Shown: positions 8,124 to 52,112, numbered from the stretch's first letter. The stretch: 64,000 nucleotides of DNA from Candidatus Oxydemutatoraceae bacterium (GCA_965218975.1 OZ244717.1:1792001-1856000); one strand, 5' to 3'. Program-made: numbers and translations. The notes: a model not told the origin generated them from the letters alone.

Positions 8124-8124
8124 A

Positions 8125-14118: not shown

Positions 14119-14259
14119 TTGGCAAAACTCGAATCTAAAATAATGAACAAAATGGCAGAATTAAGAGACCAATTAACTGCCCGGATACTGATTGCTATCG
14201 GTATCAACATTGGTGCGGTCGGTTTGATGTTTACTGCCACCGGTTTTTTCTCCGGATAA
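14119..14259 (+). pseudogene. 5'-truncated coiled-coil/TM gene copy
   Basis: LAKLESKIMNKMAELRDQLTARILIAIGINIGAVGLMFTATGFFSG*, fused directly to the adhesin remnant. Confidence 0.8.
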
Positions 14260-14313
14260 TCATGCCCTACGGACATCGAGTATGCGGTCGGAGGAATCGG
14301 CTATGATGAAAAC

Positions 14314-14538
14314 ATGAGCACAATTGATCTATACGAAGTCCTAAAGAGGATTCCAAATGTTAGTAGCGACGAGGCTAAATCCGTTGCCGACACGCTTGCG
14401 CATACGGATGATGTCGCAACCAAAACCGATTTGACCGAATTAGAAATGCACTTGACTTGGCGGATGATTATTATTGCAGGCGTCATTATCGCCGCAGTGG
14501 GACTCATGTTTACCGCCGCCGGTTTTTTCCCCGGATAA
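14314..14538 (+). CDS. DUF1640/CCDC90-like small coiled-coil TM protein (head type A)
   Basis: MSTIDLYEVLKRIP head, VATKTDL neck motif, C-terminal TM. Confidence 0.8.
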   Translation: MSTIDLYEVLKRIPNVSSDEAKSVADTLAHTDDVATKTDLTELEMHLTWRMIIIAGVIIAAVGLMFTAAGFFPG

Positions 14539-14592
14539 TCATGCCCTACGGACATCGAGTATGCGGTCGGAGGAATCGGCTATAATGAAAAC

Positions 14593-14875
14593 ATGAGCAC
14601 AATTGATCTATACGAAGTCCTAAAGAGGATTCCAAATGTTAGCAGCGACGAGGCTAAATCCGTTGCCGACATGCTTGCGCATACGGAATGATGTCGCAAC
14701 TAAAAGCGGTCTGAGCGAGTTTGCAACCAAAGCCGATTTGGCAAAACTTGAATCTAAAATAGCAAAACTTGAATCTAAAATAGTTGAATTGGAAATGCGC
14801 TTGACTTGGCGGATGATTATTACCGTCGGCATCTTTAATTCCATGTTGTTTTTAGCCCTGAAATTTACTGGCTAA
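14593..14875 (+). pseudogene. DUF1640-like copy with +1 frameshift
   Basis: ACGGAATGATG versus ACGGATGATG in sister copies gives a premature TGA. Confidence 0.75.
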
Positions 14876-15067
14876 CGTTTAGCGCGAGGTAAGTCGTCCG
14901 GTTCCTAAAAATCCGCCGGATACTCAAAGGCAACGGCTTTTCAAAAATATTACCCATTGTTTGCGTATGCCGCTTGAACGCGAGAGTCCCCGAGTCATCT
15001 TCGCTTATTTTAGAAGTGTTGTTCCTTTAGGATGCCCGGCGCCTGCGGAACCGGCTATAATAAAAAC

Positions 15068-15322
15068 ATGAGTACCACCGCACTTTACAAAGCATTGATT
15101 CAGGCTGGCGTCTCTGAAGATACCGCCGAAAGAGCCGTCGAGGACTTGGCGCATACGGATGATGTCGCGACCAAAGCGGATTTGGCAAAACTTGAATCTA
15201 AAATAATGGATAAAATGGCAGAATTAAGAGACCAATTAACTACCCGGATATTGATTGCTATCGGTATCAACATTGGTGCGGTCGGTTTGATGTTTGCTGC
15301 TGCCGGTTTTTTCTCCGGATAA
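15068..15322 (+). CDS. DUF1640/CCDC90-like small coiled-coil TM protein (head type B)
   Basis: MSTTALYKALIQAG head, VATKADL, TM anchor. Confidence 0.8.
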   Translation: MSTTALYKALIQAGVSEDTAERAVEDLAHTDDVATKADLAKLESKIMDKMAELRDQLTTRILIAIGINIGAVGLMFAAAGFFSG

Positions 15323-15366
15323 TCATGCTGCGAGTGCGCAATCGGAGAAATCGGCTATAAGAAGAC

Positions 15367-15600
15367 ATGAGCACAATTGATCTATACGAAGTCCTAAAGA
15401 GGATTCCAAGTGTTAGCAGCGACGAGGCTAAATCCGTTGCCGACACGCTTGTGCATACGGATGATGTCGCGACCAAAGCCGGTTTGACAAAAATTGAATC
15501 TAAAATGGTTGAATTGGAAATGCGCTTGACTTGGCGGATGATTATTACCGTCGGCATCTTTAATTCCATGTTGTTTTTAGCCTTGAAATTTACCGGCTAA
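15367..15600 (+). CDS. DUF1640/CCDC90-like small coiled-coil TM protein (head type A)
   Basis: Paralog of 14314 with the LTWRMIITVGIFNSMLFLALKFTG anchor. Confidence 0.8.
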   Translation: MSTIDLYEVLKRIPSVSSDEAKSVADTLVHTDDVATKAGLTKIESKMVELEMRLTWRMIITVGIFNSMLFLALKFTG

Positions 15601-15793
15601 CGTTTAGCGGCGAGGCACGTTGTCCGGTTCCTAAAAATCCGCCGGATACTCAGAGGCAACGGCTTTTCAAAAATATTACCCATTGTTTGCGTATGCCGCT
15701 TGAACGCAAGAGTCCCCGAGTCATCTTCGCTTATTTTAGAAGTATTGTTCCTTTAGGATGCCCGGCGCCTGCGGAATCGGCTATAATGAAAAC

Positions 15794-16015
15794 ATGAGTA
15801 CCACCGCACTTTACAAAGCATTGATTCAGGCTGGCGCCTCTGAAGATACCGCCGAAAGAGCCGTCGAGGACTTGGCGCATACGGATGATGTCGCGACCAA
15901 AGCGGATTTGGCAAAACTTGAGATACGACTCATTAAATGGATTGTCGCAGCGACCGCACTGATTATTTCTGCAATGGGACTTATGTTTACCGCTGCCGGT
16001 TTTTTCTCCGGGTGA
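15794..16015 (+). CDS. DUF1640/CCDC90-like small coiled-coil TM protein (head type B)
   Basis: ATKADLAKLEIRLIKWIVAAT... Confidence 0.8.
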   Translation: MSTTALYKALIQAGASEDTAERAVEDLAHTDDVATKADLAKLEIRLIKWIVAATALIISAMGLMFTAAGFFSG

Positions 16016-16182
16016 TCGTGCCTTGCGACCACGAGTGCAAATGCTCGGTGTCCGCACAATAACCAACAATCGCTTCTTATATCGCTTGAATGTAAGAGTC
16101 CTTGAGCCATCTTCGCTTATTTTAGAAGTATTGTTCCTTTAGGATGCCCGGTACCTGCGGCGGAATCGGCTATAATGAAAAC

Positions 16183-16425
16183 ATGAGTACCACCGCACTT
16201 TACAAAGCATTAATTCAGGCTGGCGCCTCTGAAGATACCGCCGAAAGAGCCGCCGAGGACTTGGCGCATACGGATGATGTCGCGACCAAAGCGGATTTGA
16301 CAAAACTTGAGTCTAAAATGGCCGAATTAGAGATACGACTCATTAAATGGATTGTCGCAGCGACCGCACTGATTATTTCTGCAATGGGACTTATGTTTAC
16401 CGCTGCCGGTTTTTTCTCCGGGTGA
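16183..16425 (+). CDS. DUF1640/CCDC90-like small coiled-coil TM protein (head type B)
   Basis: Near-identical to the 15794 copy with one extra heptad. Confidence 0.8.
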   Translation: MSTTALYKALIQAGASEDTAERAAEDLAHTDDVATKADLTKLESKMAELEIRLIKWIVAATALIISAMGLMFTAAGFFSG

Positions 16426-16592
16426 TCGTGCCTTGCGACCACGAGTGCAAATGCGCGGTGTCCGCACAATAACCAACAATCGCTTCTTATATCACTTGAA
16501 TGTAAGAGTCCTTGAGCCATCTTCGCTTATTTTAGAAGTATTGTTCCTTTAGGATGCCCGGTACCTGCGGCGGAATCGGCTATAATGAAAAC

Positions 16593-16857
16593 ATGAGTAC
16601 CACCGCACTTTACAAAGCATTAATTCAGGCTGGCGCCACGGAAGCGCTCGCCGAAAGAGCCGTCAAGGGACTTGGTTGACACGGACAAGTTCGTTACCAA
16701 AGACGATCTGAAAGAATTTGCAACCAAAGCGGATTTAAAAGCCGGATTAGCCGAATTAAAAGCCGAGATGCTTCAATGGAACATGATTATTGCCAGTGTT
16801 ATTATCGCCGCAATGGGGCTCATGTTTACCGCTTCCGGTTTTTTCTTCAGGCTATAA
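16593..16857 (+). pseudogene. DUF1640-like copy with +1 frameshift
   Basis: GTCAAGGGACTTG has one more base than GTCGAGGACTTG in sister copies; downstream frame FVTKDDLKEFATKADL... Confidence 0.75.
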
Positions 16858-16954
16858 ACGCATCGCTTCAATTTTCAACTGAAAGAAGTAAACCGGGTAA
16901 AGCTTGCTGCAGAAGTATTTTATGGGAATTATATAGCAAAATCCGTGGAGCCGA

Positions 16955-17137
16955 TTATTTTCTGACCAGTTTCCACTTCTGGTTCAGTTCTTCTCTTGTG
17001 GATTCGCGGTTCTCACTTTTGGCCTCGGATACTGGGGCTGTAAAAATCTGGCGCATGGCAGTATCCAGTTCATCCTCGGACACAGGCCCGCGTTCGGTCT
17101 TGTCAAACTATTTCTTATTGAAGCCTTGTTTTTTCAT
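16955..17137 (-). pseudogene. Small IS passenger ORF with an internal stop
   Basis: MKKQGFNKK*FDKTERGPVSEDELDTAMRQIF...KWKLVRK*; ATGA overlap with the REase stop. Confidence 0.5.
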
Positions 17138-46600: not shown

Positions 46601-47106
46601 CCGCCGCGGTGCCCCATGTCTATATCGCCGTCTTGCGCCAACGTGTTTTGCGTGACACCGATGCCGTCATCGTCAAAGACGTCCGCTTCAACCGTATAGG
46701 CGAATATCAGCGTATCGCTGCCGCTGCCGCGAACGTAACGCGCCGTTCTCGGGCCGCCGATATTCAGCTCGGTCAGCGGCACGCCGGTTACAGTCACTGT
46801 CTCGTCGAACATCAGCGCCACTTCAATCATCTCGTCGAAAAAGTAGGTGTCCCTCGATGCCGGTTGCGATACGATATTGATGTCAATGATTGCAGGCGCA
46901 GTCTGAGCGTGGGCAGGTTCAGCATAGACCGAAGCAATCAATACGGCCAACAGACACAAACCGAAGGAAAAACTTTGCGCGCGCGACAACGCTCGGGAGC
47001 AACAAAACTTCAACATCTTGTCAATAAACCGCAATGCCCACCAAGCCGAAAATACGCTCAAGGGCCCGCTTGACGTTTGCGCAGTAAAACATTCGCAGTC
47101 GCTCAT
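19645..47106 (-). CDS. Giant (9153 aa) surface adhesin: Calx-beta, FN3 and cadherin repeats, choice-of-anchor-U-like domain, GlyGly-CTERM
   Basis: Uninterrupted 27.5-kb ORF; signal peptide ending PAHA-Q; many DGSA..DY/TIIDND units; YEYR..FEVRAVSA FN3; PDYENPAD cadherin; IEDGSVNDSDGRVNGIIFDPG then GGGGGAVGLWWLLL-TM-KRR. Confidence 0.93.
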   Translation of the reverse strand: MSDCECFTAQTSSGPLSVFSAWWALRFIDKMLKFCCSRALSRAQSFSFGLCLLAVLIASVYAEPAHAQTAPAIIDINIVSQPASRDTYFFDEMIEVALMFDETVTVTGVPLTELNIGGPRTARYVRGSGSDTLIFAYTVEADVFDDDGIGVTQNTLAQDGDIDMGHRGGAGVAIVSADDTPIDLSNSARDFPDVFVDGGPFVSIVSPRALVTEGESAVFTVTRMGDVSAELTVELSLSVPDNDFSRLLVAGSLPNIVEAPEFTFLASEASMMLSIPILDDSIANAKPFSITISLTPRDRYIVDPGQGSATVQVADNDFPPDAPRNLRFSRIDPQVSQQEGVDLWLLAWDAPLYFGSTPLETYQFRYSNDDGSTWDPDWDYISDELPFDMDLFGPAPLQLLSGLDIGTRYTFEVRAVNAAGNGASARIVETPTVPTAPTGLRLRGILFDIAELIWTAPFDAGTAPINRYEYRVSRDGGTTWGPDWTDVGATLAVEINLSEGENTFEVRAVSAEGAGAVARLTQSWRNVRPFIVALDVPTTVDESAEVISFSVSLSEGSFLPGVSPPRGAITLFFSTNDGSATAPADYIALDAVPLVFLPEAVGHQDKTPQAQNLEIRIRDDLIIEDAETFSLVVSEVVFSDPQDVLDGDSDDRAEITIEADAAVSSTSFSLEFSEEEIDEGEVIAVTVRSENGFKEDQVFTLTIDAQDAEFPGDYTVADEGGNLLQPPFWLTLPASGTTMPTAGDSVRTMLNRAVTFFLTFTDDPVFEESKQTTLTVSHAEIGVLGEATSTVVDNDIVPGAPENLTAVGHSAGVFLEWDAATDPGTAPIDHYEFRISDDDGITFLSWSGFTVPGFFGRLNFPIFDQEILIEVRAVSAAGAGAAARTTVTQRSSRMLYRMAFDAPAYTVNEGEDTEVRIILNSESPAVTNGEIIVAVSARAGSATAEDYTFEQTVTFPAGSEVNDFMLISLTAVEDAFFERDESFSLFISDVSAPHSNDEVIVDNMVFSFSPNLEATVTIIDDEEKPSVLVTPSFPSGDNSFREGVAGMFAIQLEGDLLPRDIEVTLELSGTATFGEDYILTDATTDALLTPPPVLRLPAGERFAEPIRITFIDDDIVEVGEILTYKPTTKSGPDFTILESFGDSSSIIDNDIGVAFAASTAEVTVGASVEARLILQNEASLPTTAGVVTVQLESSEFELDPSELTLSRTMPRATFTISAPHDIGLRTGEVKIAEVMSPDGFTVSRSTAPLMVETVARRFRLSFDGEDQTVMAGGTTTIDVSLTGIAVAPSSTPTLGADERLTVAFSYTGEGVTITPSELTFTAGAPTAQLRLDAAFDVGGTTGTLTAALRGAPPDETIATVESAALPVEIVGREFALESTFDRLSLIASGDSATIDVSLVGIKTPLGMPMLSEDERLTVEFSYTGRGVTIEPPTATFTRDQRSAQLTLTVAINANTGTLTARAIDSSETTVTLALPIDIVPTVGIFPFGEGLFRVEDLDSFFDLRRTDSAGQLEVIVELAGEQLTGATSRTVVFDDGVTQETAIRIDVEPISGWNLGTTLTATLLPSEDYTIAPTAASVQFHVLNSSDDPPAMVIRFTTTRIEVIEGENYMLRGFLETDLDQRPLTAIFGDINFDDGSAMAPSDYDYGAAISFGGTPIDIPTRGTRRRGNTEDGFRYRDEFTVENTGDDVVVRSVEDPSVVRRNNAIVSFLDFEGNPNKKGFLSTEDDLLAEGPEDFILSYVARHDDIVRVENGTITVIIIDNDFGVVFKLPNGETPERVLLHSSASTEVTVAPAGENRLQEGESIEARFLMPSTESQRPTTQTVTLTATTSGTLTVGLAADVFSGEITFIDAQLFAPRAAPRAVNLVAPNAPALARLPIEAFPVVSISAARSEINELDTGLRPIVFTLRRSSADTATDLRGVTVRVSEPADEHRVLADGDADGFVTYTLRFVGDAATTELRVVTTGRMQGQWNPHTPIIAELLPGADYDVSPTRASARTLVRNIDDIASIVALEEDAIVVREGSAPAVYVLIETLNAGQQPNSLTFLAVSAFPGSAGSPSDYGIFSDLVPFPIESYMPFDDGAGQKYRSRVNAIAPDRKPHVTKRDGLAEGDEDYEFILELSPGQGGNVMFGRDKVRVTIIDNDYAAVFTDPRTREVFAVPPDAIFRSPSGERFEHGEVLAGATRELGVMLVGPNELRSGESIVARFLVPSPESSAPVVQEVTFTQEAPSAMLEVGAPYNAPSTLKVSFSDARLFTDGDFTDNVALVAPVAPEFRDNNSANGEVRASTPAFLILDVIFDREFILTFEPELQAVDAGGAATVSLSLSGNETSLGTSMLGEDERLTAEFFYTGEGVAAQPVTFTAERTTVEVRLNAALTATGGVITAAFADASSITATPGSGKLEVAINPAVGIFAARPRIDEGDDLVFDLQRTDSGDELAVMVRVTEPADDNRVLVSDPTDSPTGESAHTVSFAQGAMTAQLRIATVDDEVWEAHAPVTATLLLESDYLIAPAASSTTVEVSDNDFAATTVRPQHDAQAAREIDGTVAIPIIIAMDNPGEVNHRALTLSVEPASGEATLGADFSGFIEEIVVWPADYTLSADGRYEAIVAASVEIIDDFLIEARESFTVDIRLSPADARLKLTAADSVVTITIIDNDQVVFGLSQDQPIATGDAARALAVASTQVYVMLRDPKSIAAQQEVLVTLDSAEFGLDKTELVLTAAQPSAVFTIHVPYAAATGEITATAELSGEEAVIFLTPLPVEVIEREFTLRFAMLEQAVAAGGSTPVSLILFGEPTMFGDSMLGEGEQLTVEFFYTGRGVAAEPVVFTAASMSVEAHLNAALDATDGTLIAAAAEATNATVTSTRVPVDIVTLPLISISAASAVVNEGEEIVLMLTRTVLPDAELTVDMEITETGGDRIAAVDKRRRTIPFAADEKERMVAVATLSDLTIDFDSLVRAALLPGGVSYAVSSTRGATEVTVSETNEAELSLLIEPNSVVEGDGRVVTLRVGIDNNVTFAADQTIMFDFRGGSAVRRDDFRVNKDTLTLRGGERESVDYITITVINDTQIEGTERIEIKALLNGAEVARGSLDIENDDMAMLVFDRTSIDVTEGDTAMFRVNVLPIGNCTIPYLVIVAFEYDDSGGVLTGNPPAEARLAPCDRSFSIDLPTHDDTIISGDRSVTVNAIFEATEQVRFDPPLSLPITVRDDESLEVGVTFVTPSSNPLDTAQPRTAQVLANGATDVQVRLWNPHLLEADDRVEVGLTATEVALLQSEFVLTQSEPSAMLTISAPYDAPASGEVALNAELVKVDGTREDITFTSSSLAVEVVAREFTLTFAEGSAGIEIFSDAPRLIVPAGGSQRFGLSLTPKETPLGVPILDAAERLAVDLGYTEDGVTVSPVTFDASRMTDESRLSATTAARSGEITVTLVGTASNITIETIEPRLDVRISSYLWISTATPEVQEGDDVVFTLQRADRGGSLILFVEVSEPADSNSVFNPNAELSFSVILADGEMMTEFRVPTADDEAWEADTIITAAMPEAVVGFITLVPTALTATALVTDNDVPDLTVRFASQTGSLIPPENLSPDEGVLIRVVEGDSYVTGKVLSETARNERPNGSFGMLLVTTGEERTVVGIDLVDIDLTFTVAPASFRVVDTAGEERYRSLIDLSAAGGDFRILDDFLAEGDETFFLNLVQPRDTPAGVAIGSPGHLEVVIIDDDYGVVFANSRGEILERAQVLASAATTELTVMLKDPARLRAGELIVARFLVPSSESPVPVTEEVTFAPAVLGATPSATLEIGAPYAVAPAAVSFVDADLLSDGVLTRAVYLVAPVAPEFRDGNENNGEVYTSSHAFLPVEAVAREFALESAEERLSLIAGGVSESFDLSLSPIETPLGIPTLGEDEVLTVAFSYTGEGVTIKPSTTTFTQGDSLELIFVEAAIDATTGTLTATVIDTPNAVVELELPIDIVPTVGIFTRMKSIKEPSGDLGSHESFRVHRTNSAGRLEVKVELAGRQLVGSTPRTVIFADGESEKDVFVEYEPIIGWNPDTTLTATLLPSADYMIAPTAARAETTVLNVDFPEAVCGFVTTRIEVIEGENYMPIISCTTDRDERPPIGGVFGVIIEIIAGTARDPADYDYNSGHTPFNLFDLSALNRGLFRFLDENRYRYAGRFTFKNTGNMIVSISENTGESLFSTGSTHLSFIEGDNLGEGLFSTKDDLLVEDNEDFSLKLILIDNERVGGPTRIENDTLTVIIIDNDSVAGAPANLAAEAGDTYAVLSWDTPADPGTSPIERYEYRASTDTATIEDQKWSIAGDATGQVRAQIVSDLTNDMTYIFQVRAVSAVGNGTTAEVTAAPNADAEAVFILTFDPSEYTITERDRQVTLTLKLISAGRVLLQDDVTVTVLTRDGSATLSDYTRLSIGNMAGVVFSPEAGVTESSQTVTVQITTDIIFEPDDEIFSVVIDAVTAADSADTVVIDRGEATVTIVDGGRMPVWRLGRLPSSVGESASTVSIVMQRTIGHIDRGHPLTLELGGTATFGADYVITDIAGNPLALPLTFNAPHRFEERILEARLIITDDAAVEGDETIEIHLSTTDPNVLLGNNTIQTITLADNDTLERFTIGERQTTTVSLVTEGSEDLRYAITGGADQALFEIDPATGELSFTAPDFENPTDVAGTDPINAAMNNEYVVTVTAIGHTAADRAVTAVRELTFVVTDLDESLPLIEMTAVKAQVAEGMPAMFRLSRIALMHVPLTVNVNVSQEGEVIRSEDSYRPPTSVIFAANEAEAILMVETAADETFESTGTVTAQIEAGNGYLLIDPVFASVEVADDDLPVISFAEETTFIVEERGRVEVELMLKDQAGGKTIVSEETITVDYVTADGTALAGVDYEAASGTLIFAPGETEKTIVIPLIADPFLESLETFTVRLSNANNATIDSASHIVRIIDRDAAEVRFVAGETTVDEGASAAELTLTLSIELPFSWTMNYRTQDGSALAGSDYVAMSGALTFAAGETEQTITIPLLDDAVYERNQSFSVVLKTLRDQDRRVTIPELEATVTITDNEPEPVWELSIDPQIIAEGASADIIVEITNGVVLEKNQALEFTFRASGSRGLRTGLTLGNEFDITGLAENVVLASGQSSLTATAAIVIQEDDEVELTESGVYALSFLGVGELFSLSTFEIFVLDKDRVAFAVSPDQPLGEGDTLRVLAGTSTQLYVVMRPLNVSEELMALLSIPDDRVTLRSAQFELDATEFTLTSAAPSMPFTVNVPYDAATTGEVTIEVSTAIGDGREGTLSLEPLPVEVVARPFALEFSVDGLSLIAGGVSESFDLSLSAIETPLGIPMLGEDEVLTVAFSYTGEGVMIEPSTATFAQDDLFELIFMEAAVDATTGTLTATVIDTPNAVVELELPIDIVPTVGIFVAPQRMDPLFSGSVGGELVREAFGPFFELRRTDSIGRLEVMVALAGERLGESATRTVTFADGAAVKEFQVDTVEIDGWNPDTTQTATLLPSADYTIAPMAQSAEVTVRDDDLPETVCGFATTRIEVIEGENYRLRVSCATVRDEQLAALSENEFVIIGDIRDGTATAPDDYDYNPQITTSFEIRVVGRGFSRSPDGNGGYIYKGTFIFENVGEGIILVTLEEDNTGFSDRISGNIINAVDEDGLPTKGGFLSTEDDLSAEKNEDFILENLISDSPSRPLRIENDTLTVIIIDNDAVAFALSPDQPIGAGDTAQVLAGASTEVYLVMQTPDGMPAEQSITVTLESTQFELSATEFTLTPTMSSALFTITAPYTAPAIGEVVITSELADEVATLSAPLSVETVARKFTLAFAPDNQTLDVGGSTTVVLSLTANETPLGLSALGEDERLSVEFSYTEAGIMTLSPVMFTAQNMTAEVRLDATLEARPGTLTATITAANATIDPATLTVGVLPEISISPSRLTELENAGRGVFTLRRTGGGDEVLSVDVTVSRPDVRLPLPEGTTRTVTFADGDIFLTGLRPYTFEVTTRTVVFAAGEPTAELPVRIRDNDDPEPAQFITIMLLPGAGYIVSPPASSAVLSVSDDDIIPQTLSFAQTEITINEGEAYPITIFAETLGDILIFGYPGIHIRTMDGSAVSPSDYFGLNITRSGGIFFTLFASGYILSDDGSGYRFRGTFTFENIYAGEGSCVLSATGADGQTDGFGFFPQQGCNPSLLETLPGVQRVLTTEDDLSAEGNEFFILELLPNRGKAITVGAASTLKVTIIDNDAAPGTPTNLAAAVESHQRVELSWEAPADSGTSPINRYEYRASSDGGKVWDPDWTHAADAATRMTVQAVTDLTGGTEYVFEVRAVSAAGGSAPARVTAMTPEEEFRLSFERSAYSAREDDGLVTLMLKITGGRAPRDDITFFVSTQDIGAVAVEDYLPPLFEEVVGPPGFFSPVSADGSEVLRAVYIPIVNDRLGEGKETFMAAVSRATATGSGDTVVIDRSTAMVTIIDDDPLSALDLSIRPASIAEGASAEITVSIREEFLSTTERTVTLEFAGTATRGDEADYTLSVKGAPLLPPFELTLAAEASVVTAMIATLNDAEAEADETIEVTASYAGDAVVRTVTIVDISANVAPAFISAASFDVNEGETVVGTVTAADANIEDEVMYSVTGGADGTLFTIDPSSGELSFATAPNYENPADADTDNVYMLIVTAIGGTGVRALTTTQAITVMVLDVATTITVTAEEPAVTEGEPAVFVFERTDSTDALALTVNITVDDPDGVLAAAAPNTVTFAADSARTVLSLATVIDEAFGVRTVMVTVNDGVDYEVGIENSAEVRVIDVNVAPVFSSAESFEVNEGQTAIGTVTAADANIEDEVMYSVTGGADDALFAIDSSSGELSFATAPDYENAADADTDNVYMLIVTAAGGTDVRALTTTQEITVTVLDVPTTITITADEPMVTEGEPAMFTFSRTDATDALALTVNITVDDPDGVLADAAPGMVTFDAGSARTVLSLATIDDTLEEDDSVVTVTIIDGAGYRIGIENSASVRVVDNDVNVAPAFISAASFDVNEGETVVGTVTAADANPQDEVTYSVTGGADDALFDIDSSSGELSFTTAPDYENPADADTDNVYMLIVTAAGGTGARALTTTQAITVTVLDVPTTITITAAEPTVTEGEPAMFTFSRTDATDAPALTVNITVDDPDGVLAAAAPEMVTFDAGSATAELSLATIDDTLEEDDSTVTVTVGVDDTGFYEVGIENSASVRVVDNDVNVAPAFTSAASFAVNEGETVVGTVTAADANIEDEVMYSVTGDGADDALFAIDSSSGELSFATAPDYENPADADTDNVYMLIVTAAGGTDVRALTTTQAITVTVLDVATTITITADDAEVTEGEPAVFTFSRTDATDAPALTVNITVDDSDGVLAAAAPEMVTFDADSATAELSLATDDDTLEEDDSTVTVTVIGDMDYAVGIENSAEVRVVDNDVNVAPAFTSAASFAVNEGETVVGTVTAADANIEDEVMYSVTGGADDALFAIDSSSGELSFVTAPDFENAADADTDNVYMLIVTAIGGTDARALTTTQEITVTVLDVPTTVTITADKAEVTEGESAVFTFSRTDATDAPALTVNITVDDPARALATALPGMATFDAGSARTVLSLATVIDEAFGVRTVMVTVNDGVGYEVGIENSAEVRVIDVNVAPVFSSAESFEVNEGETVVGTVTAADANIEDEVTYSITNGADQDQFTIDSSSGKLSFVTVPDYENPVDADDTDNVYMLTVTAIGGTDARALTTTQAITVTVLDVPTTITITAEDPTVTEGEPAMFTFTRTDATDALALTVNITVDDSGGVLADAAPDTITFDADSATTVLNLATIDDTLEEDDSTVTVTVNDGVDYAVGIENSAEVRVNDNDGPLTISFVTTEYMVNESDREVRFELRLSDERPLRGNINVDLTASDGSAVLHEDYSPRVSVTIYTPISVLMRTVQYFIIDDDVFETEEFFSLRISGVTTFHSDDEVVTGQGRVATVTIIDDDLPPIWSLDMLPSSVSESRDTVVPIVMRRMHDIDREYPLTLELGGTATFGEDYVITDMQDGPFALPLTFPAPSDRTVVFGLVIMDDAVFEGAETIELRLTTTDPDVTIGSDTTQTITLIDDDTTPVLSLTVGATAINEGALTDIEVGITNESVYAEDQTITLEFAGDAMLEDDYTVMVGDSPLSSPYELTLPAGLSSVTATIMATDDRADEADETITLTARHGTDTIGEVQTVTIIDNDDAPVLSLSVGATEINEGASTDVVVEITNESVFAEDQTITLEFAGEATPEDDYTVMVGDSLLSSPYELTLPAGLSSVSATIMATDDRADEADETITLTARHGADTIGEVQTVTIIDNDDAPVLSLSVGATEINEGASVDITLEITNESVFAEDQTIALEFTGEATPEDDYTVMVGDSLLSSPYELTLPAGLSSVTATIMATDDRADEADETITLTARHGADTIGEVQTVTIIDNDAVPELDLSVSAVTIDEGESIDITLEITNESVFAEDQTITLEFTGTATPEDDYTVSVDGSPLSSPYELTLLAGASSVTATITVTDDTEIEADEAIEITALHGADTIGKKTLTIISDVSPVERIADLTPAVLGNFTPGAVIPSEIERYIVIPGQRNDGASIDATALLVRFNPSLRACIVNDSVASEPSYQFDCDVLSGPLAEDSTVQAPVFGSVLYWADVRDDNGLIVRATSQKIYVAPPLGFASGLQAIASDTASADVLLLTSDDADVPSSINLDFEAGVSPSVPFEDGRGTSTVNIGTLSAGDILRLTAINGVAFSGADSDLNAVTEAMLTMHELFALGNNALRLIEAKEAGINPIESVDPGLSAELIVFDQVTTITLTNDYMVDVFVYSTATAMFELAGMSEDAVRELVIDLSDNELKAVDREGEERVISLEDADFSPYIFQVMMSTNQEVTASIHALGDVADELGMIDADLTLATTGTLLTGFYAYKQADEASVGVARITSNAILNLPPLPDGREVAEVESGVFDFIAADLTGGVATVVVELSAAAQEGSRYYKYQPDDGWTEFNTSSNDRIYSAPAPCPSAQASREPDAGGGLSADYAWRLVSGGVRADDECLLLEIEDGSVNDSDGRVNGIIFDPGALVQFVARVGGGGGAVGLWWLLLFVGIILAAMVLKRRNVRPIRRLLPQRLR
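21380..22775 (-). repeat. Four tandem 351-bp (117-aa) Calx-beta-like repeats inside the adhesin
   Basis: ATCGTTGTCGATGATCGTG recurs at 21721, 22072 and 22423; central copies near-identical. Confidence 0.9.
23495..27345 (-). repeat. Six tandem 633-651-bp cadherin + Calx-like double-domain repeats inside the adhesin
   Basis: GAGCATATAAACGTTATCCG at 23902, 24538, 25180, 25831, 26473 and 27106. Confidence 0.9.
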
Positions 47107-47327
47107 TCTGCAAACGACTCTCGGCGCCGCCGACTGCCATTATATACGGCATTATGTTCACGCTTACATTCATGTTGAAAAATCAGCACCGGTATTGAAC
47201 CCAATACTTCGTTCGCAATTTAATTTTGTGTGCGATCGGCCTTGCTTTCGCATGAGTATGAGTAATGTTTATGAATCCGAATTATTTTACAGACTTTAGC
47301 ACATGTGTTTAATGTCAGTCAACAAGA

Positions 47328-47430
47328 TGTACGATACCACCCTAAATGGGATTCTTGAAGAGCTTCCGGGGAAGCATTCGGCAGTAACATTCGGATCGGT
47401 GCTTTCTGTCCGTTGCCGACATGAGGACGG
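47328..47430 (-). mobile_element. IS481-type 3' end fragment, second copy of 9387-9490
   Basis: TGTACGAT(A/G)CCACCCTAAATGGGATTCTTGAAG...CAGTAACATTCGGATCGGTGCTTTCTGTCCGTTGCC shared; encodes RPHVGNGQKAP...ESHLGWYRT. Confidence 0.75.
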
Positions 47431-47614
47431 TGCATAGCGTGCGGCTTCATAACTTACGAGTACCAACTGTAAACCCCCTAAATGCTCATCGAGTCAATTC
47501 AAATCCGTAAACAATCGTCCCGCATTATCATGCGCAAAACCTTGCCGCGGCGGCGCAGCTGAGACGCTCAGGCCGAACCGGCGGCGGCAAATATAAATTC
47601 CGACAAATAAAAGC

Positions 47615-47860
47615 TTAACTAGTAAATCTTAAGGCTAGAAATAATACAGAATTAAAAATGCCGACAGTAATAATTATCCGCCAAGTCAAACGCATTTCTA
47701 ATTCGGCTATTTTAGCCGCTATTTTAGATTCAAGTTTCGCCAAATCCCCTTTGGTTACGACGTCGTCCGTATGCGCGATGGTGTCGGCGGCGGCGCGCGC
47801 TTCCGCCTCGGTCGCATCCGGAATGCGGCGGAACAAGTTGTATAGGTCTATCGCGCTCAT
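47615..47860 (-). CDS. DUF1640/CCDC90-like small coiled-coil TM protein
   Basis: MSAIDLYNLFRRIP head, VVTKGDLAKLESKI, TM anchor. Confidence 0.8.
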   Translation of the reverse strand: MSAIDLYNLFRRIPDATEAEARAAADTIAHTDDVVTKGDLAKLESKIAAKIAELEMRLTWRIIITVGIFNSVLFLALRFTS

Positions 47861-48222
47861 GTCTTCAGTATAACCGATTGCGAAGACATAAACTACCCCA
47901 TGTATAAGTCCATAACATTCGGCACGGAGTTGCCGACTCAAACCGGCACGCGGTCGGTGCATAGCGTGCGGCTTCATAATTTACGAGTACCAACTGTAAA
48001 CCCCCTAAACGCTCATCGAGTCAATTCAAATCCGTAAACAATCGTCCCGCATTATCATGCGCAAAATCTTGCCGCGGCGGCGCAGCTGAGACGCTCAAGC
48101 CGAACGTTCGGCGGCGGACATTTCGGATCGGTCAAGCAAGGCACCAACATGCGCACGGGGGATCAAGACGTCATTGTGCAGGGAAAAAACCGGCGGCAAA
48201 AATAAGTCAGACAAATAAAAGC

Positions 48223-48447
48223 TTAACTAGTAAATCTTAAGGCTAGAAATAATACAGAATTAAAAATGCCGACAGTAATAATTATCCGCCAAGTCAAACG
48301 CATTTCTAATTCGGTTAATTCCATTTTTAAATCCGCTTTGGTTACGACGTCGTCCGCATGCGCGATGGTGTCGGCGGCGACGCGCGCTTCCGCCTCAGTC
48401 GCATTCGGAATGCGGCGGAACAAGTTATATAGGTCTATCGCGCTCAT
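48223..48447 (-). CDS. DUF1640/CCDC90-like small coiled-coil TM protein
   Basis: Paralog with VVTKADLKMELTELEMRLTW. Confidence 0.8.
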   Translation of the reverse strand: MSAIDLYNLFRRIPNATEAEARVAADTIAHADDVVTKADLKMELTELEMRLTWRIIITVGIFNSVLFLALRFTS

Positions 48448-48728
48448 GTTTTCAGTATAACCGATTGCGAAGACATAAACTACCCCATGTATAAGTCCAT
48501 AACATTCGGCACGGCGTCATCAACCCAAACCGGTATACGGTCGGTGCATAGCGTGCGGCTCCATATTTATGAACGTCAACTGTAAACCCCCTAAAACGCT
48601 CATCGAGTTAATTCAAATCCGTAAACAATCGTCCCGCATTATCATGCGCAAAATCTTGCCGCGGCGGCGCAGCTGAGACGCTCAGGCCGAACCGGCGGCG
48701 GCAAATATAAATTCCGACAAATAAAAGC

Positions 48729-48941
48729 TTAACTAGTAAATCTTAAGGCTAGAAATAATACAGAATTAAAAATGCCGACAGTAATAATTATCCGCCAAGT
48801 CAAACGCATTTCTAATTCGGCCAAATCCGTTTTCGTCGCGACGTCGTCCGCATGCGCGATGGTGTCGGCGGCGGCGTGCGCTTCCGCCTCGGTCGCATCC
48901 GGAATGCGGCAGAACAAGTTGTATAGGTCTATCGCGCTCAT
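48729..48941 (-). CDS. DUF1640/CCDC90-like small coiled-coil TM protein
   Basis: Shortest paralog (70 aa), VATKTDLAELEMRLTW. Confidence 0.8.
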   Translation of the reverse strand: MSAIDLYNLFCRIPDATEAEAHAAADTIAHADDVATKTDLAELEMRLTWRIIITVGIFNSVLFLALRFTS

Positions 48942-49260
48942 GTCTTCAGAATAACCGATTCCGAAGACATAAACTACCCCATGTATAAGTCCATAACATT
49001 CGGCACGGCGTTGTCAACCCAAACCGGTATACGGTCGGTGCATAGCGTGCGGCTCCATAATTTACGAGTACCAACTGTAAACCCCCTAAACGCTCATCGA
49101 GTCGATTCAAATCCGCAAACAATCGTCCCGCATTATCATGATCATCATGCGCAAAACCTTGCCGCAGCGGCACAGCCGAGACACTCAAGTCGAATGTTCG
49201 GCAGCGAATATTTCGGATCGGGCAAGCAAGGCGCCGACATGCGCACGAGGGATCAAGACG

Positions 49261-49512
49261 TCATCGCGCGGAGAAAAAACCGGCGTAGGCAAACATTAAA
49301 CCGACCGCACCGATGACCGTGCCGATAATAACACTGGCAACAATAATCATTCGCCAAGTCAAACGCATTTCTAATTCGGCTAATTCCATTTTTAAATCCG
49401 CTTTGGTTGCGACATTGCCCACATGCGCGATGGTGTCGGCGGCGACGCGCGCTTCCGCCTCGGTCGCATCCGGAATGCGACGGAACAAGTTGTATAGGTC
49501 TATCGCGCTCAT
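49261..49512 (-). CDS. DUF1640/CCDC90-like small coiled-coil TM protein
   Basis: Head A with the IIVASVIIGTVIGAVGLMF anchor. Confidence 0.8.
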   Translation of the reverse strand: MSAIDLYNLFRRIPDATEAEARVAADTIAHVGNVATKADLKMELAELEMRLTWRMIIVASVIIGTVIGAVGLMFAYAGFFSAR

Positions 49513-49829
49513 GTCTTCAGAATAACCGATTTCGAAGACCGAAGACATTGTGTACGGGTCCGATATATTGCGGATTCTTTAAGGCGGCTTGGAATCAACA
49601 TCCGGTATGCGATCGGTGCATAGCGTGCGGCTCCATAATTTACGAGTACTAACTGTAAACCCCCTAAACGCTCATCAAGTCAATTCAAATCCGCAAGCAA
49701 TCGTCCCGCATTATCATGCGCAAAATCTTGCCGCGGCGGCGCGAGCGAGACGCTCAAGCCGAACGTTCGGCGGCAGGCATTTCGGATCAGTCTGCCGAAG
49801 CGTTGATATGTGCGCGGGGGATCAAGACA

Positions 49830-50102
49830 TCATTGTCCGGAGAAAAAACCGGCAGAGGCAAACATGAGCCCCATTGCGCCGATGATGATTCCAGCTAGCG
49901 CCACCATCCATTTAATCAATTCGACTTTAAGTTCTGCCATTTTAGATTCAAGTTTCGCCAAATCCACTTTGGTTGCAAATTCGCTCAGGTCGTCTTTAGT
50001 AACGAACTTATCCGTATCAACCAAGTCTTCGACAGCTTTTTCTGCGAGCGCTTCCGCAGCGCCAGCTTGAATCAATGCTTTGTAAAGTGCGGTGGTGCTC
50101 AT
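49830..50102 (-). CDS. DUF1640/CCDC90-like small coiled-coil TM protein (head type B)
   Basis: MSTTALYKALIQAG head, double neck FVTKDDLSEFATKVDL. Confidence 0.8.
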   Translation of the reverse strand: MSTTALYKALIQAGAAEALAEKAVEDLVDTDKFVTKDDLSEFATKVDLAKLESKMAELKVELIKWMVALAGIIIGAMGLMFASAGFFSGQ

Positions 50103-50416
50103 GTTTTCAGTATAACCGATTTCGAAGACATTGTGTATGGGTCCGATATATTGCGGATTCTTTAAGGCGGCTTGGAATCAACATCCGGTATGCGATCGGT
50201 GCATAGCATGCGGCTCCATAATTTACGAGTACTAACTGTAAACCCCCTACCTAAACGCTCATCGAGTCAATTCAAATCCGCAAGCAATCGTCCCGCATTA
50301 TCATACGCAAAACCTTGCCGCGGCGGCGCAGCTGAGACGCTCAAGCCGAACGTTCGGCGGCAGGCATTTCGGATCAGTCTGCCGAAGCGTTGATATGTGC
50401 GCGGGGGATCAAGACA

Positions 50417-50656
50417 TCATTGTCCGGAGAAAAAACCGGCAGAGGCAAACATTAAACCGACCGCACCGATGACCGTGCCGATAATAACACTGGCAACAAT
50501 AATCATTCGCCAAGTCAAACGCATTTCTAATTCGGCCAAATCCGTTTTCGTCGCAACATCGTCCGTATGCGCAACGGTATCCGCGGCAGCGCGCGCTTCC
50601 GCCTCAGTCGCATTCGGAATGCGGCGGAACAAGTTATATAGGTCTATCGCGCTCAT
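50417..50656 (-). CDS. DUF1640/CCDC90-like small coiled-coil TM protein
   Basis: Head A, VATKTDL, GFFSGQ tail. Confidence 0.8.
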   Translation of the reverse strand: MSAIDLYNLFRRIPNATEAEARAAADTVAHTDDVATKTDLAELEMRLTWRMIIVASVIIGTVIGAVGLMFASAGFFSGQ

Positions 50657-50988
50657 GTTTTCAGCATAACCGATTCCGAAGACATAAACTACCCCATGTA
50701 TAAGTCCATAACATTCGGCACGGCGTTGTCAACCCAAACCGGTATGCGGTCGGTGCATAGCGTGCGGCTCCATATTTATGAACGTCAACTGTAAACCCCC
50801 TAAACGCTCATCAAGTCAATTCAAATCCGTAAACAATCGTCCCGCATTATCATGCGCAAAATCTTGCCGCGGCGGCGCAGCTGAGACGCTCAAGCCGAAC
50901 GTTCGGCGGCGAATATTTCGGATCAGTTTGCCAAAGCGTTGATATGTGCGCGGGGGATCAAGACGTCATTGTCCGGCGGCGACGGAAC

Positions 50989-52110: not shown

Positions 52111-52112
52111 TA

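What the first reader, a model, noticed from the sequence alone, without database searches (positions are those of the whole stretch)
14119..50975. Two expanded arrays (8 + 6 copies) of miniature head-neck-stalk-anchor membrane proteins around a giant adhesin
Seen: 14 paralogs of about 70-93 aa (one headless, two frameshifted), each with a short helical head, a (V/F)(A/V)TKxDL motif, a variable number of heptads and one C-terminal TM helix. They form two tandem arrays (14119-16857 on +, 47615-50656 on -). Established: this architecture fits the DUF1640/CCDC90 (mempromCC) trimeric coiled-coil family, whose bacterial function is largely unknown; Borrelia Bdr proteins are a comparable paralog expansion. 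Inference: a diversified, possibly hetero-oligomerising inner-membrane repertoire (phage exclusion/defence, or tuning of an envelope complex). This is the best candidate for an undescribed system in the window.
Basis: partly seen in the sequence, partly recalled or inferred. Interest (0 to 1): 0.8.

Follow-up and report, generated by a model that had tools for sequence, protein, structure and literature searches.

The report
Arrays of miniature membrane-anchored coiled coils
Two clusters of very small genes beside a giant adhesin gene encode shortened, shuffled versions of a known but functionally unexplained family of membrane-anchored three-stranded stalk proteins; the family has also multiplied in several unrelated bacteria, some from lineages named as sponge symbionts.

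Summary
There are 14 paralogues: 11 intact, one 5'-truncated, two with +1 frameshifts. They form two oppositely oriented arrays (14119-16857 on +, 47615-50656 on -) around a 9153-aa adhesin gene. Nine more loci lie elsewhere in this 2.08-Mb genome.

They are miniature relatives of DUF1640/CCDC90-like (PF07798). Direct Pfam scores are sub-threshold (15 bits against a cut-off of 33.5). Long-stalk relatives with the same head reach the cut-off, and all copies with a neck carry the beta-layer motif (V/F)(A/V)TKxDL. A homotrimer model passes its controls.

The copies are mosaics. Head, neck, stalk end and anchor each group the copies differently. Stalks differ by about 4, 7, 11 or 18 residues. dN/dS is about 0.15-0.55 for diverged pairs, so they are not debris.

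A -10-like box lies 6 nt before the ATG in 17 of 20 copies, which suggests leaderless transcripts.

Similar arrays, with stalks up to about 170 residues, occur in other metagenome-assembled genomes, including a Nitrospirales one. Several sit beside giant surface-protein genes, and array 1 abuts a remnant of a second adhesin gene.

Function remains inferred. My best reading is cytoplasm-facing, tail-anchored trimeric scaffolds. No evidence for a defence role was found.

The parts
14119..14259 (+). Array 1, copy 1: 5'-truncated (headless) copy with stalk end and type-2 anchor. It abuts the adhesin remnant.
   Evidence: (D8: 95% identical to 15180-15328)
14314..14538 (+). Array 1, copy 2: intact, 74 aa. 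Head A (array-1 subtype), shortest stalk, type-2 anchor.
14593..14875 (+). Array 1, copy 3: broken by a +1 insertion near 14687. Head A, two beta-layer motifs, longest stalk, type-1 anchor.
   Evidence: Contig pieces covering 14642-14812 show no differences.
15068..15322 (+). Array 1, copy 4: intact, 84 aa. Head B, stalk +11, type-2 anchor.
   Evidence: (PF07798 E 0.02)
15367..15600 (+). Array 1, copy 5: intact, 77 aa. Head A, stalk +7, type-1 anchor.
15794..16015 (+). Array 1, copy 6: intact, 73 aa. Head B, shortest stalk, type-2 anchor.
16183..16425 (+). Array 1, copy 7: intact, 80 aa. Head B, stalk +7, type-2 anchor. This copy was used for the trimer model.
16593..16857 (+). Array 1, copy 8: broken by a +1 insertion near 16667. 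Head B, two beta-layer motifs, type-2 anchor.
   Evidence: Contig pieces 16608-17600 (X1-X3) and 16620-16773 (X5) show no gaps.
47615..47860 (-). Array 2, copy 1 (nearest the adhesin start): intact, 81 aa. Head A (array-2 subtype), stalk +11, type-1 anchor.
48223..48447 (-). Array 2, copy 2: intact, 74 aa. Head A, stalk +4, type-1 anchor. A remnant of the type-2 anchor end lies just after its stop codon.
48729..48941 (-). Array 2, copy 3: intact, 70 aa. Head A, shortest stalk, type-1 anchor.
49261..49512 (-). Array 2, copy 4: intact, 83 aa. Head A, stalk +4, long type-2 anchor.
49830..50102 (-). Array 2, copy 5: intact, 90 aa. Head B, two beta-layer motifs, type-2 anchor.
   Evidence: PF07798 E 0.056; phrog_17872 E 5e-5
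50417..50656 (-). Array 2, copy 6: intact, 79 aa. Head A, shortest stalk, long type-2 anchor.
47416..50989 (-). Seven copies of a roughly 250-nt intergenic element that separates and flanks the genes of array 2 (unit 494-608 bp). Found only here in the genome, apart from two matches of about 60 nt elsewhere.
   Evidence: D1: 61-88% to the reference copy; BLAST: 86-95%, 7 places, all in array 2
13808..14118 (-). Remnant of a second giant-adhesin gene: an internal piece joined to the shared 3' tail. It abuts the truncated first copy of array 1, 5' end to 5' end.
   Evidence: 13943-14118 is 88% identical to window 39176-39351. 13808-13952 is 81-87% identical to the 3' ends of five large genes, including window 19647-19771.
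19645..47106 (-). 9153-aa adhesin gene (signal-peptide-like N-terminus, repetitive body, Gly-run plus hydrophobic plus basic C-terminal tail). It lies directly downstream of array 2 and is co-directional with it.
   Evidence: translation

Best explanation
The 14 genes are a locally amplified, recombining set of miniature DUF1640/CCDC90-like proteins.

Each protein has four parts:
- a two-helix head of about 30 residues;
- a beta-layer neck, (V/F)(A/V)TKxDL;
- a short coiled-coil stalk;
- one hydrophobic helix at the very C-terminus.

Because there is no signal peptide and an Arg/Lys sits just before the anchor, I infer that they are tail-anchored in the inner membrane with head and stalk in the cytoplasm, and that they form parallel trimers.

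The arrays arose by tandem duplication, followed by exchange of modules between copies. This gave combinations of two head types (three sequence groups), several stalk lengths and two anchor types. Most copies are kept under purifying selection. Each gene seems to carry its own promoter, with a -10 box placed so that the transcript would begin at or next to the ATG.

The most likely function, by analogy with the mitochondrial members, which are described as membrane scaffold factors, is a set of membrane-anchored stalks. These would hold a small cytoplasmic docking head at defined distances from the membrane.

Shown: the sequences, the family link, the mosaicism, the selection and the wider distribution.
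Modelled only: the trimer.
Inferred: topology, leaderless transcription and the scaffold role.
For: Family:
- PF07798 is hit by 2 of 13 window copies at E 0.02 and 0.056, one over the head and neck, the other over the stalk end and anchor.
- Close relatives (E 1e-12 to 1e-13 to a window copy) carry PF07798 in the precomputed table.
- 14 of 23 long-stalk relatives hit it and 2 of 23 pass the cut-off, some aligned end to end.
- A profile of 101 family members finds 6h9l_A as the best solved chain (E 3.4e-4), then the beta-layer construct 5apz (E 0.0039).
- The same profile finds genes in other genomes that have a head, an ATK neck, a stalk and a C-terminal hydrophobic stretch, some with the FDTHKF...LATKxD head that I recall as the usual bacterial DUF1640 form.
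- The motif [aliphatic]-A-T-K-[polar]-[DE] is described as the beta-layer of DUF1640 and DUF3782 in PMC4786415 (passages read).

Trimer:
- Score 0.58 against a best control of 0.00.
- The mark was reached by 20 of 30 proteins solved as pairs of one chain and by 1 of 23 solved as single chains.
- The runs agree in at least 93% of contacts, and the partner's pLDDT is at least 75.
- Contacts run through residues 32-39 (DVATKADL) and then in heptad spacing into the anchor.
- Trimeric beta-layer coiled coils have been solved, so the pass may reflect likeness only.

Selection:
- Whole-gene dN/dS is 0.14-0.59 wherever dS could be computed and exceeds about 0.25.
- 11 of 14 copies are intact.

Mosaicism:
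- Heads fall into three groups (89-99% identical within a group, 43-59% between).
- Necks are 90-100% identical across head types within array 1.
- The ELEMRLTWR segment is 79-90% identical between arrays whose heads are 53-59% identical.
- The anchors of three array-2 copies are identical in DNA, while their heads differ.

Promoter:
- A TATNNT box lies 6 nt before the ATG in 17 of 20 copies that have a head.
- The extended motif occurs 21 times in the genome, 15 of them in front of these genes.
- The same geometry is seen in another genus of the family.
Against: - No window copy reaches the Pfam cut-off directly (best 15.2 bits against 33.5; 8 of 13 copies have no Pfam match at E <= 0.01).
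- Only 6 of 101 wider family members hit PF07798 at E <= 0.01.
- No experiment or RNA data bear on expression.
- The sigma-70 pattern scan did not exceed its shuffles (9 found against 6.4 +/- 2.6; 8 against 6.1 +/- 2.5).
- The most recent duplicates have dN/dS of 0.63 and 0.90, on only about 10 substitutions each.
- Three copies are broken.
- No binding partner was found. The neighbours of 20 low-copy relatives share no recurrent family.
- Topology was read from the sequence; no predictor was run.
- The scaffold role is an analogy with distant eukaryotic members.
Confidence: 0.55

Rival explanations
1. The genes came from, or serve, mobile elements. They would be phage- or plasmid-type small membrane proteins acting in superinfection exclusion, abortive defence or lysis (an XhlA-like holin helper), spread between co-resident bacteria.
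For: - Weak matches to phrog_17872 (unknown function) for 4 of 8 copies, best E 5e-5, nearly full length.
- Weak XhlA matches: E 0.0067 and 0.012 in 2 of 13 copies, and 4 of 101 relatives.
- DUF1640 genes are reported in prophage regions (PMC5291501, passages), in small mobilisable plasmids (PMC13516913, table passage) and in a T5-like phage tail fibre (PMC3326045, passage).
- Heads up to 64% identical over the first 50 residues occur in a Nitrospirales genome, and only 7 of 80 other genomes of that class have any match.
- A restriction-modification pair and broken IS elements lie beside array 1.
Against: - 0 of 8 copies match PADLOC.
- No phage structural, integrase or lysis genes are in the window.
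- The XhlA scores are far below the cut-off (17 bits against 34.7).
- In a relative with 44 matches, the copies looked at are singletons or pairs between ordinary-sized genes that were not scanned against Pfam, and several have their own ribosome-binding sites.
- Purifying selection holds over saturated synonymous divergence.
Confidence: 0.2
2. The arrays are functionally tied to giant surface proteins, for example as cytoplasmic-face membrane organisers for the synthesis, export or anchoring of very large adhesins.
For: - Array 2 lies directly upstream of, and co-directional with, the 9153-aa adhesin gene.
- Array 1 abuts the remnant of a second adhesin gene.
- In one gammaproteobacterial genome, two arrays lie beside LRR/cadherin-like proteins of 2488+ and 2328 aa.
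- In the Nitrospirales genome, copies are interleaved with autotransporter- and cadherin-domain proteins.
- Elsewhere in this genome, single copies lie upstream of, and co-directional with, a trypsin-like protein whose C-terminal tail resembles the adhesin's, a LodA-like oxidase and membrane pentapeptide-repeat proteins.
Against: - Only 1 of 7 frames of 2500 aa or more in this genome has a copy within 1 kb.
- The 7-copy array in the Poriferihabitaceae genome lies between a PhoD-like phosphatase and a glycosyltransferase.
- In the 20 low-copy loci no adhesin neighbour was found; in the 44-match genome the neighbouring genes were not scanned.
- Accessory islands gather repeats, IS elements and large variable genes anyway, so co-location need not mean shared function.
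Confidence: 0.15
3. The arrays are neutral duplication debris in a recombination-prone island, and few or none of the copies are functional.
For: - Three of 14 copies are broken.
- Four of 9 loci elsewhere are fragments or frameshifted.
- The youngest pairs have dN/dS of 0.63-0.90.
- IS fragments and an adhesin remnant are adjacent.
Against: - dN/dS is 0.14-0.59 for diverged pairs with dS from 0.27 up to saturation.
- 11 of 14 reading frames are open.
- The start region is conserved in 17 of 20 copies, although synonymous sites between head groups are saturated.
- The same architecture is kept in other genomes, including one of another phylum.
Confidence: 0.05

Closest known systems
DUF1640 / CCDC90-like family (Pfam PF07798; mitochondrial MCUR1 and CCDC90B; described by Adlakha et al. 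2019, Structure 27:464, as conserved in prokaryotes and organelles. That paper is not held here; I saw only its reference entry.)
   Same: - Head, ATK beta-layer neck, coiled-coil stalk and C-terminal membrane anchor.
- The Pfam model aligns to the head and neck of one copy and to the stalk end and anchor of another, and end to end with long-stalk relatives.
- A trimer is supported by the model.
   Different: - The stalk is cut down to about 11-30 residues, so the proteins are 70-90 aa against a 175-position model.
- Direct scores are below the cut-off.
- There are 23 loci in a 2.08-Mb genome, 14 of them in two arrays, with shuffled modules.
- No N-terminal membrane segment or presequence.
Borrelia Bdr proteins (recalled: a multi-copy plasmid-borne family with variable repeat number and a C-terminal membrane anchor). 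A Borrelia miyamotoi 'DUF1640 domain-containing protein' is listed in PMC6856195 (table passage); that it is a Bdr protein is my recollection only.
   Same: - A paralogue family with variable length in the repeat or stalk region.
- A C-terminal anchor.
- Many copies per cell.
- Unknown function.
   Different: - The copies here are chromosomal tandem arrays.
- They are much shorter.
Beta-layer (alpha/beta) coiled coils such as Tcar0761 / DUF3782 (PMC4786415; passages read)
   Same: - The same consensus, [aliphatic]-A-T-K-[polar]-[DE].
- Relatives in other genomes repeat it in 9- to 11-residue spacing, like the nonads of Tcar0761.
- 5apz is the third-best solved match of the family profile (E 0.0039).
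   Different: - One or two motifs per protein here.
- Membrane-anchored.
- No nuclease domain.
XhlA (PF10779), the small coiled-coil plus C-terminal membrane-helix protein of the PBSX lysis cassette (its role is recalled)
   Same: Size and layout. There are weak matches over the stalk and anchor (E 0.0067 and 0.012).
   Different: - Scores are about half the cut-off.
- No holin or endolysin genes are nearby.
- XhlA lacks the head and the ATK neck (recalled).

Membership tests
DUF1640 / CCDC90-like (PF07798) | Score at or above Pfam's gathering cut-off (33.5 bits) | tested here: not met
   Best window copy scores 15.2 bits (E 0.02), the second 13.7 bits. The other 11 of 13 copies have no PF07798 match at E <= 1. 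The whole-genome scan with the model gave 0 matches over the cut-off.
DUF1640 / CCDC90-like (PF07798) | Significant sequence homology to proteins that do pass the cut-off | tested here: met
   The window copy 16183-16422 matches P0007 at E 4.7e-13. That protein (L085:10717-11091) scores 40.5 bits on PF07798, and its neighbour scores 34.8 bits aligned over 3-170 of 175 positions. In all, 14 of 23 same-head relatives match at E <= 1e-3.
DUF1640 / CCDC90-like (PF07798) | Beta-layer motif [aliphatic]-A-T-K-[polar]-[DE] at the start of the stalk (definition from PMC4786415) | tested here: met
   The motif is present in all 13 copies that keep the neck. T and K are nearly invariant in A1, and Y7, T35, K36 and D38 are nearly invariant in the 101-member alignment.
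DUF1640 / CCDC90-like (PF07798) | A single membrane helix at the C-terminus | tested here: met
   Read directly from the translations: 16-27 uncharged, mostly hydrophobic residues at the very end, preceded by R or K. No transmembrane predictor was run.
DUF1640 / CCDC90-like (PF07798) | Parallel trimer | tested here: met
   Model only. Score 0.58 against a best control of 0.00. The mark was reached by 20 of 30 solved same-chain pairs and 1 of 23 single chains. Contact agreement is at least 93% and pLDDT at least 75. The calibration used two copies, not three, and solved look-alikes exist.
Borrelia Bdr | Sequence homology to Bdr proteins; their internal repeat | not tested
XhlA (PF10779) | Score at or above the cut-off (34.7 bits) | tested here: not met
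   17.0 and 16.2 bits in 2 of 13 copies; 4 of 101 relatives match at E <= 0.01.
Known anti-phage defence proteins (PADLOC-DB 2.0) | Match to any defence-system model | tested here: not met
   0 of 8 copies match at E <= 0.01.

The most novel reading that the evidence does not exclude
These mini-stalk proteins are a horizontally shared trait of bacteria in lineages named as sponge symbionts. Unrelated lineages would have independently amplified them into arrays whose members differ mainly in stalk length. The arrays would then provide a graded set of 'rulers' on the cytoplasmic face of the membrane, working together with the neighbouring giant surface-protein genes, for example by organising where such huge proteins are made and exported. 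That would give bacterial DUF1640 proteins their first concrete role.
Probability: 0.12. Interest if true: 0.8.

Novelty: new variant of a known kind. Interest (0 to 1): 0.5.

Why it matters
Bacterial DUF1640 proteins have a solved architecture but, as far as I could find, no assigned function. A full-text search for 'DUF1640' returned 13 papers. None of the titles or abstract openings, and none of the passages I read in 6 of them, deals with a bacterial role or with paralogue expansions.

This genome and its relatives offer a natural experiment. The same head is mounted on stalks from about 11 to about 170 residues, and the same stalk is joined to different anchors, all under selection. That makes length-dependence and head-specific partners directly testable.

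Two further points are worth following up: the repeated co-location with giant adhesin genes, and the expansion in unrelated genomes, three of them from bacterial families or orders that contain named sponge symbionts. Both hint at a role in the symbiotic envelope. If the role turns out to be ordinary, the value is mainly a well-documented case of modular gene shuffling in a very small protein.

Tried and rejected
- RNA evidence: no RNA holder was listed for the window stretch, so expression could not be examined.
- Read laying: only short contigs. No contig bridges array 1, so copy number and order rest on the single-contig assembly.
- Rfam (0 matches) and tRNA scan (0 genes) found nothing in the window.
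- Promoter and terminator pattern scans were not above their shuffles.
- The array-2 intergenic element carries antisense ORFs of 45-111 aa whose lengths and starts differ between copies. I judged them non-coding and did not test this further.
- Gene neighbourhoods of 20 low-copy relatives from other families gave no recurrent partner. Three loci are next to Mfd, UvrB or a UvrD-like helicase, which I treat as chance.
- Synteny between the type III secretion side of the window and a relative was checked: the phosphofructokinase neighbour is not shared.
- A type III secretion link: an SctJ homologue was found in 2 of 5 expanded genomes (both in the window's own family) and not found with this query in the other three. 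I therefore set aside the idea of secreted SNARE-like effectors (my estimate about 0.03).
A single protein was used instead.
- The Adlakha et al. paper is not held. 'mempromCC' and '6H9L' occur in 0 papers of the library, so the identity of 6h9l_A as a member of that study is my recollection only.
- NCBIfam gave no meaningful match.

Full report
OBSERVATION

The ORF lists and the alignment of the copies (A1) confirm 14 paralogues at the stated coordinates.

Array 1 lies on the + strand and holds eight copies:
- 14119-14259: a tail only.
- 14314-14538, 15068-15322, 15367-15600, 15794-16015 and 16183-16425: five intact genes.
- 14593-14875 and 16593-16857: two copies, each broken by a single-base insertion, near 14687 and near 16667.

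Array 2 lies on the - strand and holds six intact genes: 47615-47860, 48223-48447, 48729-48941, 49261-49512, 49830-50102 and 50417-50656. They are separated by seven copies of a roughly 250-nt element found only there.

A profile of the 14 copies scores them at E 1e-15 to 7e-38 on the genome.

The window belongs to one 2,081,000-base contig rated 99.44% complete.

Short-read contigs from three runs of one study match pieces of array 1 with at most 2 differing letters per listed piece, most with none, and no insertions or deletions. They cover both frameshift sites; a run of a second study covers the site near 16667. None spans the array, and some runs may be the assembly's own source.

Outside the window, the same profile finds nine more loci:
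- Five look intact: near 443k, 703k, 871k, 1701k and 1761k.
- Four are fragments or frameshifted: near 696k, 704.5k, 1283k and 1705.5k.
- I left out one further weak match (E 2e-4) in a 209-aa frame without an anchor.

WHAT THE PROTEINS ARE

Direct family scans are weak.
- PF07798 (CCDC90-like, formerly DUF1640) matches 2 of 13 copies at E 0.02 and 0.056. One match covers the head and neck, the other the stalk end and anchor. Both are far below the 33.5-bit cut-off.
- NCBIfam gives nothing useful.

The link becomes firm through relatives.
- A word-indexed search finds proteins with the same head (MSTTALYKAL...) at E 1e-12 to 1e-14, and four of them carry PF07798 in the precomputed table.
- A full HMMER search of 1.84 billion representatives gives 345 proteins at E <= 1e-3 and 45 at E <= 1e-10.
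- Of 100 of these representatives plus one window copy (alignment A2), 6 of 101 hit PF07798 and 4 of 101 hit XhlA at E <= 0.01.
- Of 23 long-stalk relatives taken from arrays in other genomes, 14 hit PF07798 at E <= 1e-3 and two pass the cut-off. One of these aligns over positions 3-170 of the 175-position model.
- The A2 profile's best solved match is 6h9l_A (E 3.4e-4, through ATKEDI repeats), followed by a designed repeat protein and then the Tcar0761 beta-layer construct 5apz (E 0.0039).
- The same profile also finds genes in other genomes with the same head, ATK neck, stalk and C-terminal hydrophobic stretch. Some begin with the FDTHKF...AG...QAEA...LATKxD head that I recall as the usual bacterial DUF1640 form. 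These genes were not themselves scanned against Pfam.
- The protein-atlas look-up agrees: the nearest clusters are unnamed, and one has PF07798 on 22% of its members.

I therefore file the genes as stalk-shortened relatives of PF07798, not as members by Pfam's own threshold.

OLIGOMER AND TOPOLOGY

A three-copy model of the 80-aa copy, given alignment A2, scored 0.58 against a best control of 0.00.
- The mark was reached by 20 of 30 proteins solved as pairs of one chain and by 1 of 23 solved as single chains.
- The runs agree in at least 93% of contacts, and the partner's pLDDT is at least 75.
- Contacts are continuous over residues 32-39 (DVATKADL). They then follow heptad spacing (42, 46, 49, 53, 57, 60, 64, 67/68, 71) into the hydrophobic tail.
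- The calibration used two copies, and trimeric beta-layer coiled coils are in the PDB, so this shows likeness more than proof.

There is no signal peptide, a basic residue precedes the anchor, and only 0-3 residues follow it. From this I infer a tail-anchored protein with its head in the cytoplasm. This was not tested.

MOSAIC STRUCTURE AND SELECTION

DNA identity computed by module gives a different grouping for each module.
- Heads form three groups: array-1 head A, array-2 head A, and head B. Identity is 89-99% within a group, except that the array-2 head-B copy is 80-82% to the three array-1 head-B copies. Identity between groups is 43-59%.
- Necks are 90-100% identical across both head types within array 1.
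- The stalk-end segment ELEMRLTWR is 79-90% identical between copies of the two arrays whose heads are only 53-59% identical.
- Anchors are of two kinds. The short ...TVGIFNS(M/V)LFLAL(K/R)FT(G/S) anchor and the longer ...(A/G)(V/M)GLMF..AGFFSG anchor are each combined with head A. Only the longer kind is combined with head B.
- Three array-2 copies have anchors identical in DNA, while their heads differ by 3-6 substitutions.
- Just after the stop codon of the short-anchor genes lies a remnant of the long anchor's last codons. I read this as the short anchor arising by insertion of a cassette; this is inference.

Stalks differ by about 4, 7, 11 and 18 residues (alignment). I note from general knowledge that these are the usual coiled-coil increments.

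Nei-Gojobori estimates for the 55 pairs of intact copies give the following:
- Whole-gene dN/dS is 0.14-0.59 wherever dS could be computed and exceeds about 0.25.
- It is 0.13-0.30 for heads A of the two arrays, whose dS is 1.6-2.9.
- For the youngest pairs it is 0.31-0.90 (0.63 and 0.90 for two array-2 pairs), on about 6-12 substitutions each, which says little.

The family is old and constrained, and the arrays are young on top of that.

START REGION

In 17 of 20 copies that have a head, a TATNNT box lies exactly 6 nt before the ATG. It is TATAAT in five copies and TATACT in five. It sits within a conserved AATCGG(C/T)TAT... context and no Shine-Dalgarno sequence is at the usual distance.

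The extended motif occurs 21 times in the genome, and 15 of these are in front of the mini genes.

A genus of the same family shows the same geometry. Another genus instead has a ribosome-binding site, with a TATAAT about 30 nt upstream.

I infer individually transcribed, leaderless or nearly leaderless mRNAs. The generic promoter scan does not support or refute this, and no RNA run was available.

DISTRIBUTION

- Among 40 relatives, 20 have a match at E <= 1e-3. In one genus of the same family, all five genomes have 15-44 matches. In one of these genomes, the copies looked at are singletons or pairs between ordinary-sized genes, which I did not scan against Pfam, with short repeats in their flanks.
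- In a sample of 400 genomes of the class, 40 have a match at E <= 1e-5, mostly 1-5 each. Three of the 40 are unpublished genomes (G083, G184, G350), and only this tally rests on them.
- Close relatives of head B occur in metagenome-assembled genomes titled Gammaproteobacteria bacterium, Candidatus Poriferihabitaceae, Candidatus Oxydemutatoraceae and Nitrospirales. They have 35, 13, 15 and 25 matches.
- Of 80 other genomes of the Nitrospirales genome's class, 7 have 1-5 matches and 73 have none.
- Oxydemutator and Spongiihabitans are named as sponge symbionts in PMC11685487 (passage read); Spongiihabitans is placed in Poriferihabitaceae by the taxonomy look-up. The same paper names a Nitrospirota sponge symbiont; whether the Nitrospirales genome here belongs to it was not examined.
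- The relative genomes also have tandem arrays: seven copies of 93-158 aa that differ by the number of 11-residue repeats; six, three and two copies of 105-217 aa; and sets of two or three in the Nitrospirales genome.

Amplification into arrays with variable stalk length is therefore recurrent, not peculiar to this window.

SURROUNDINGS

The window holds the following:
- a type III secretion cluster (1-9005, - strand);
- phosphofructokinase and CbbQ genes;
- a 460-aa GHSLGG protein (12154-13536, - strand);
- array 1;
- a BglII-like restriction-modification pair and a split IS1595 transposase (17134-19501);
- the adhesin gene (19645-47106, - strand);
- array 2;
- an OmpA-family gene, DoxX, an MbnB-like enzyme, a DUF2063 gene and an IS4 transposase.

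Array 2 is directly upstream of the adhesin gene and co-directional with it.

Left of array 1, 13943-14118 is 88% identical to an internal part of the adhesin gene (39176-39351). 13808-13952 is 81-87% identical to the 3' ends of five large genes, this adhesin included. A second adhesin gene thus once lay head-to-head with array 1, and a deletion removed most of it together with the head of the first mini gene.

In the gammaproteobacterial relative, two arrays adjoin LRR/cadherin-like proteins of 2488+ and 2328 aa. In the Nitrospirales genome, copies are interleaved with autotransporter and cadherin proteins.

Against a functional tie:
- Only 1 of the 7 frames of 2500 aa or more in this genome has a copy within 1 kb.
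- The Poriferihabitaceae array has no such neighbour.
- The 20 low-copy loci have none either.

Elsewhere in this genome, single copies sit upstream of membrane pentapeptide-repeat proteins, a trypsin-like protein with a similar C-terminal tail and a LodA-like oxidase. They lie near a class-3 lipase, a Tle1-like phospholipase and IS4 copies. These are accessory islands.

MECHANISM AND RIVALS

My best reading is given in the Best explanation section. For the parts:
- that the genes are shortened DUF1640-type trimeric membrane stalks kept by selection and shuffled by recombination, about 0.85-0.9;
- that they act as cytoplasm-facing scaffolds or spacers, about 0.35.

Rivals:
- A mobile-element or defence role, 0.2. 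Weak phrog_17872 and XhlA matches, the literature on prophage and plasmid copies, and the cross-phylum spread speak for it. No PADLOC match and no phage genes nearby speak against it.
- A functional tie to giant adhesins, 0.15.
- Neutral debris, 0.05.

COMPARISON AND NOVELTY

The family and its architecture are known. I did not find the following described (full-text searches; the key structural paper and any supplements were not seen):
- the extreme shortening;
- the modular shuffling;
- the tandem arrays with graded stalk length in several unrelated genomes, some from lineages named as sponge symbionts;
- their repeated position beside giant surface-protein genes.

I rate it a new variant of a known kind, of moderate interest (0.5).

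Noticed in passing
window 54097-54342 (+); also genome C1 near 693.1k, 703.9k and 365.5k: A second family of about 80-aa proteins (MEITLETIYQQ...) with a coiled coil and a C-terminal hydrophobic helix but no head or ATK motif. There are at least four copies. It weakly matches the C-terminal part of PF07798 (E 1.5e-4 to 0.46) and several PHROGs, including a holin family (E 0.0019). Two copies sit among the mini genes and pentapeptide-repeat genes near 693-704k.
   Followed up: partly
window 13808-13952 and 19647-19771; genome C1 near 738.3k, 754.0k, 858.0k and 1364.5k: About 125-145 nt at the 3' ends of at least five large genes are 81-87% identical. They encode a Gly-run, hydrophobic and basic tail. 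From memory this looks like a GlyGly-CTERM sorting signal. A trypsin-like protein at 1698523-1700136 has a similar tail.
   Followed up: partly
genome C1 928220-986875 (+) and other places: The 2.08-Mb genome holds seven open frames of 2500 aa or more, one of them 19,552 aa. A large share of a small genome is spent on giant genes.
   Followed up: no
window 1-9005 (-): A non-flagellar type III secretion cluster: SctR/FliP-like, SctQ, HpaP-like, YscO, the ATPase, a CesT-like chaperone, SctL, YscK and SctJ. Two relatives of the same family have an SctJ homologue (57% identity). In one of them (G015) a mini gene lies about 1 kb from it.
   Followed up: partly
window 12154-13536 (-): A 460-aa protein with a GHSLGG serine-hydrolase-like motif and no Pfam match at E <= 1e-5, next to the adhesin remnant. 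A class-3 lipase and a Tle1-like phospholipase lie near other mini genes elsewhere in the genome.
   Followed up: no
window 17134-17746 (-) and 18570-19501 (-): The BglII-like endonuclease appears split into two overlapping frames beside an intact N6/N4 methylase gene. The IS1595-type transposase is also in two pieces.
   Followed up: no
window 51658-53785 (+): DoxX, an MbnB/TglH/ChrH-like enzyme and a DUF2063 protein lie in a row. From memory this resembles the gene sets for copper-binding modified peptides (bufferin type). No precursor gene was looked for.
   Followed up: no
genome C1 691246-702809 (-): Three paralogous membrane proteins of 461-552 aa with AQAQDKT repeats and long AQFQGADLRG decapeptide (pentapeptide-family) repeats. 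Each is preceded by a small coiled-coil membrane-protein gene. Pentapeptide-repeat proteins also lie near both arrays of the gammaproteobacterial relative (L086, L087).
   Followed up: partly
loci L094, L097 and L105 (other genomes): In 3 of 20 low-copy loci, the DUF1640-type gene lies next to a DNA-repair helicase gene (Mfd, a UvrD-like/PD-(D/E)XK protein, UvrB). This may be chance.
   Followed up: no
window 16421 (array 1): In three runs, a contig leaves the reference just after the end of the copy at 16183-16425 and continues for 208 other letters. This is either another genomic copy with the same anchor or an alternative arrangement of the array.
   Followed up: no
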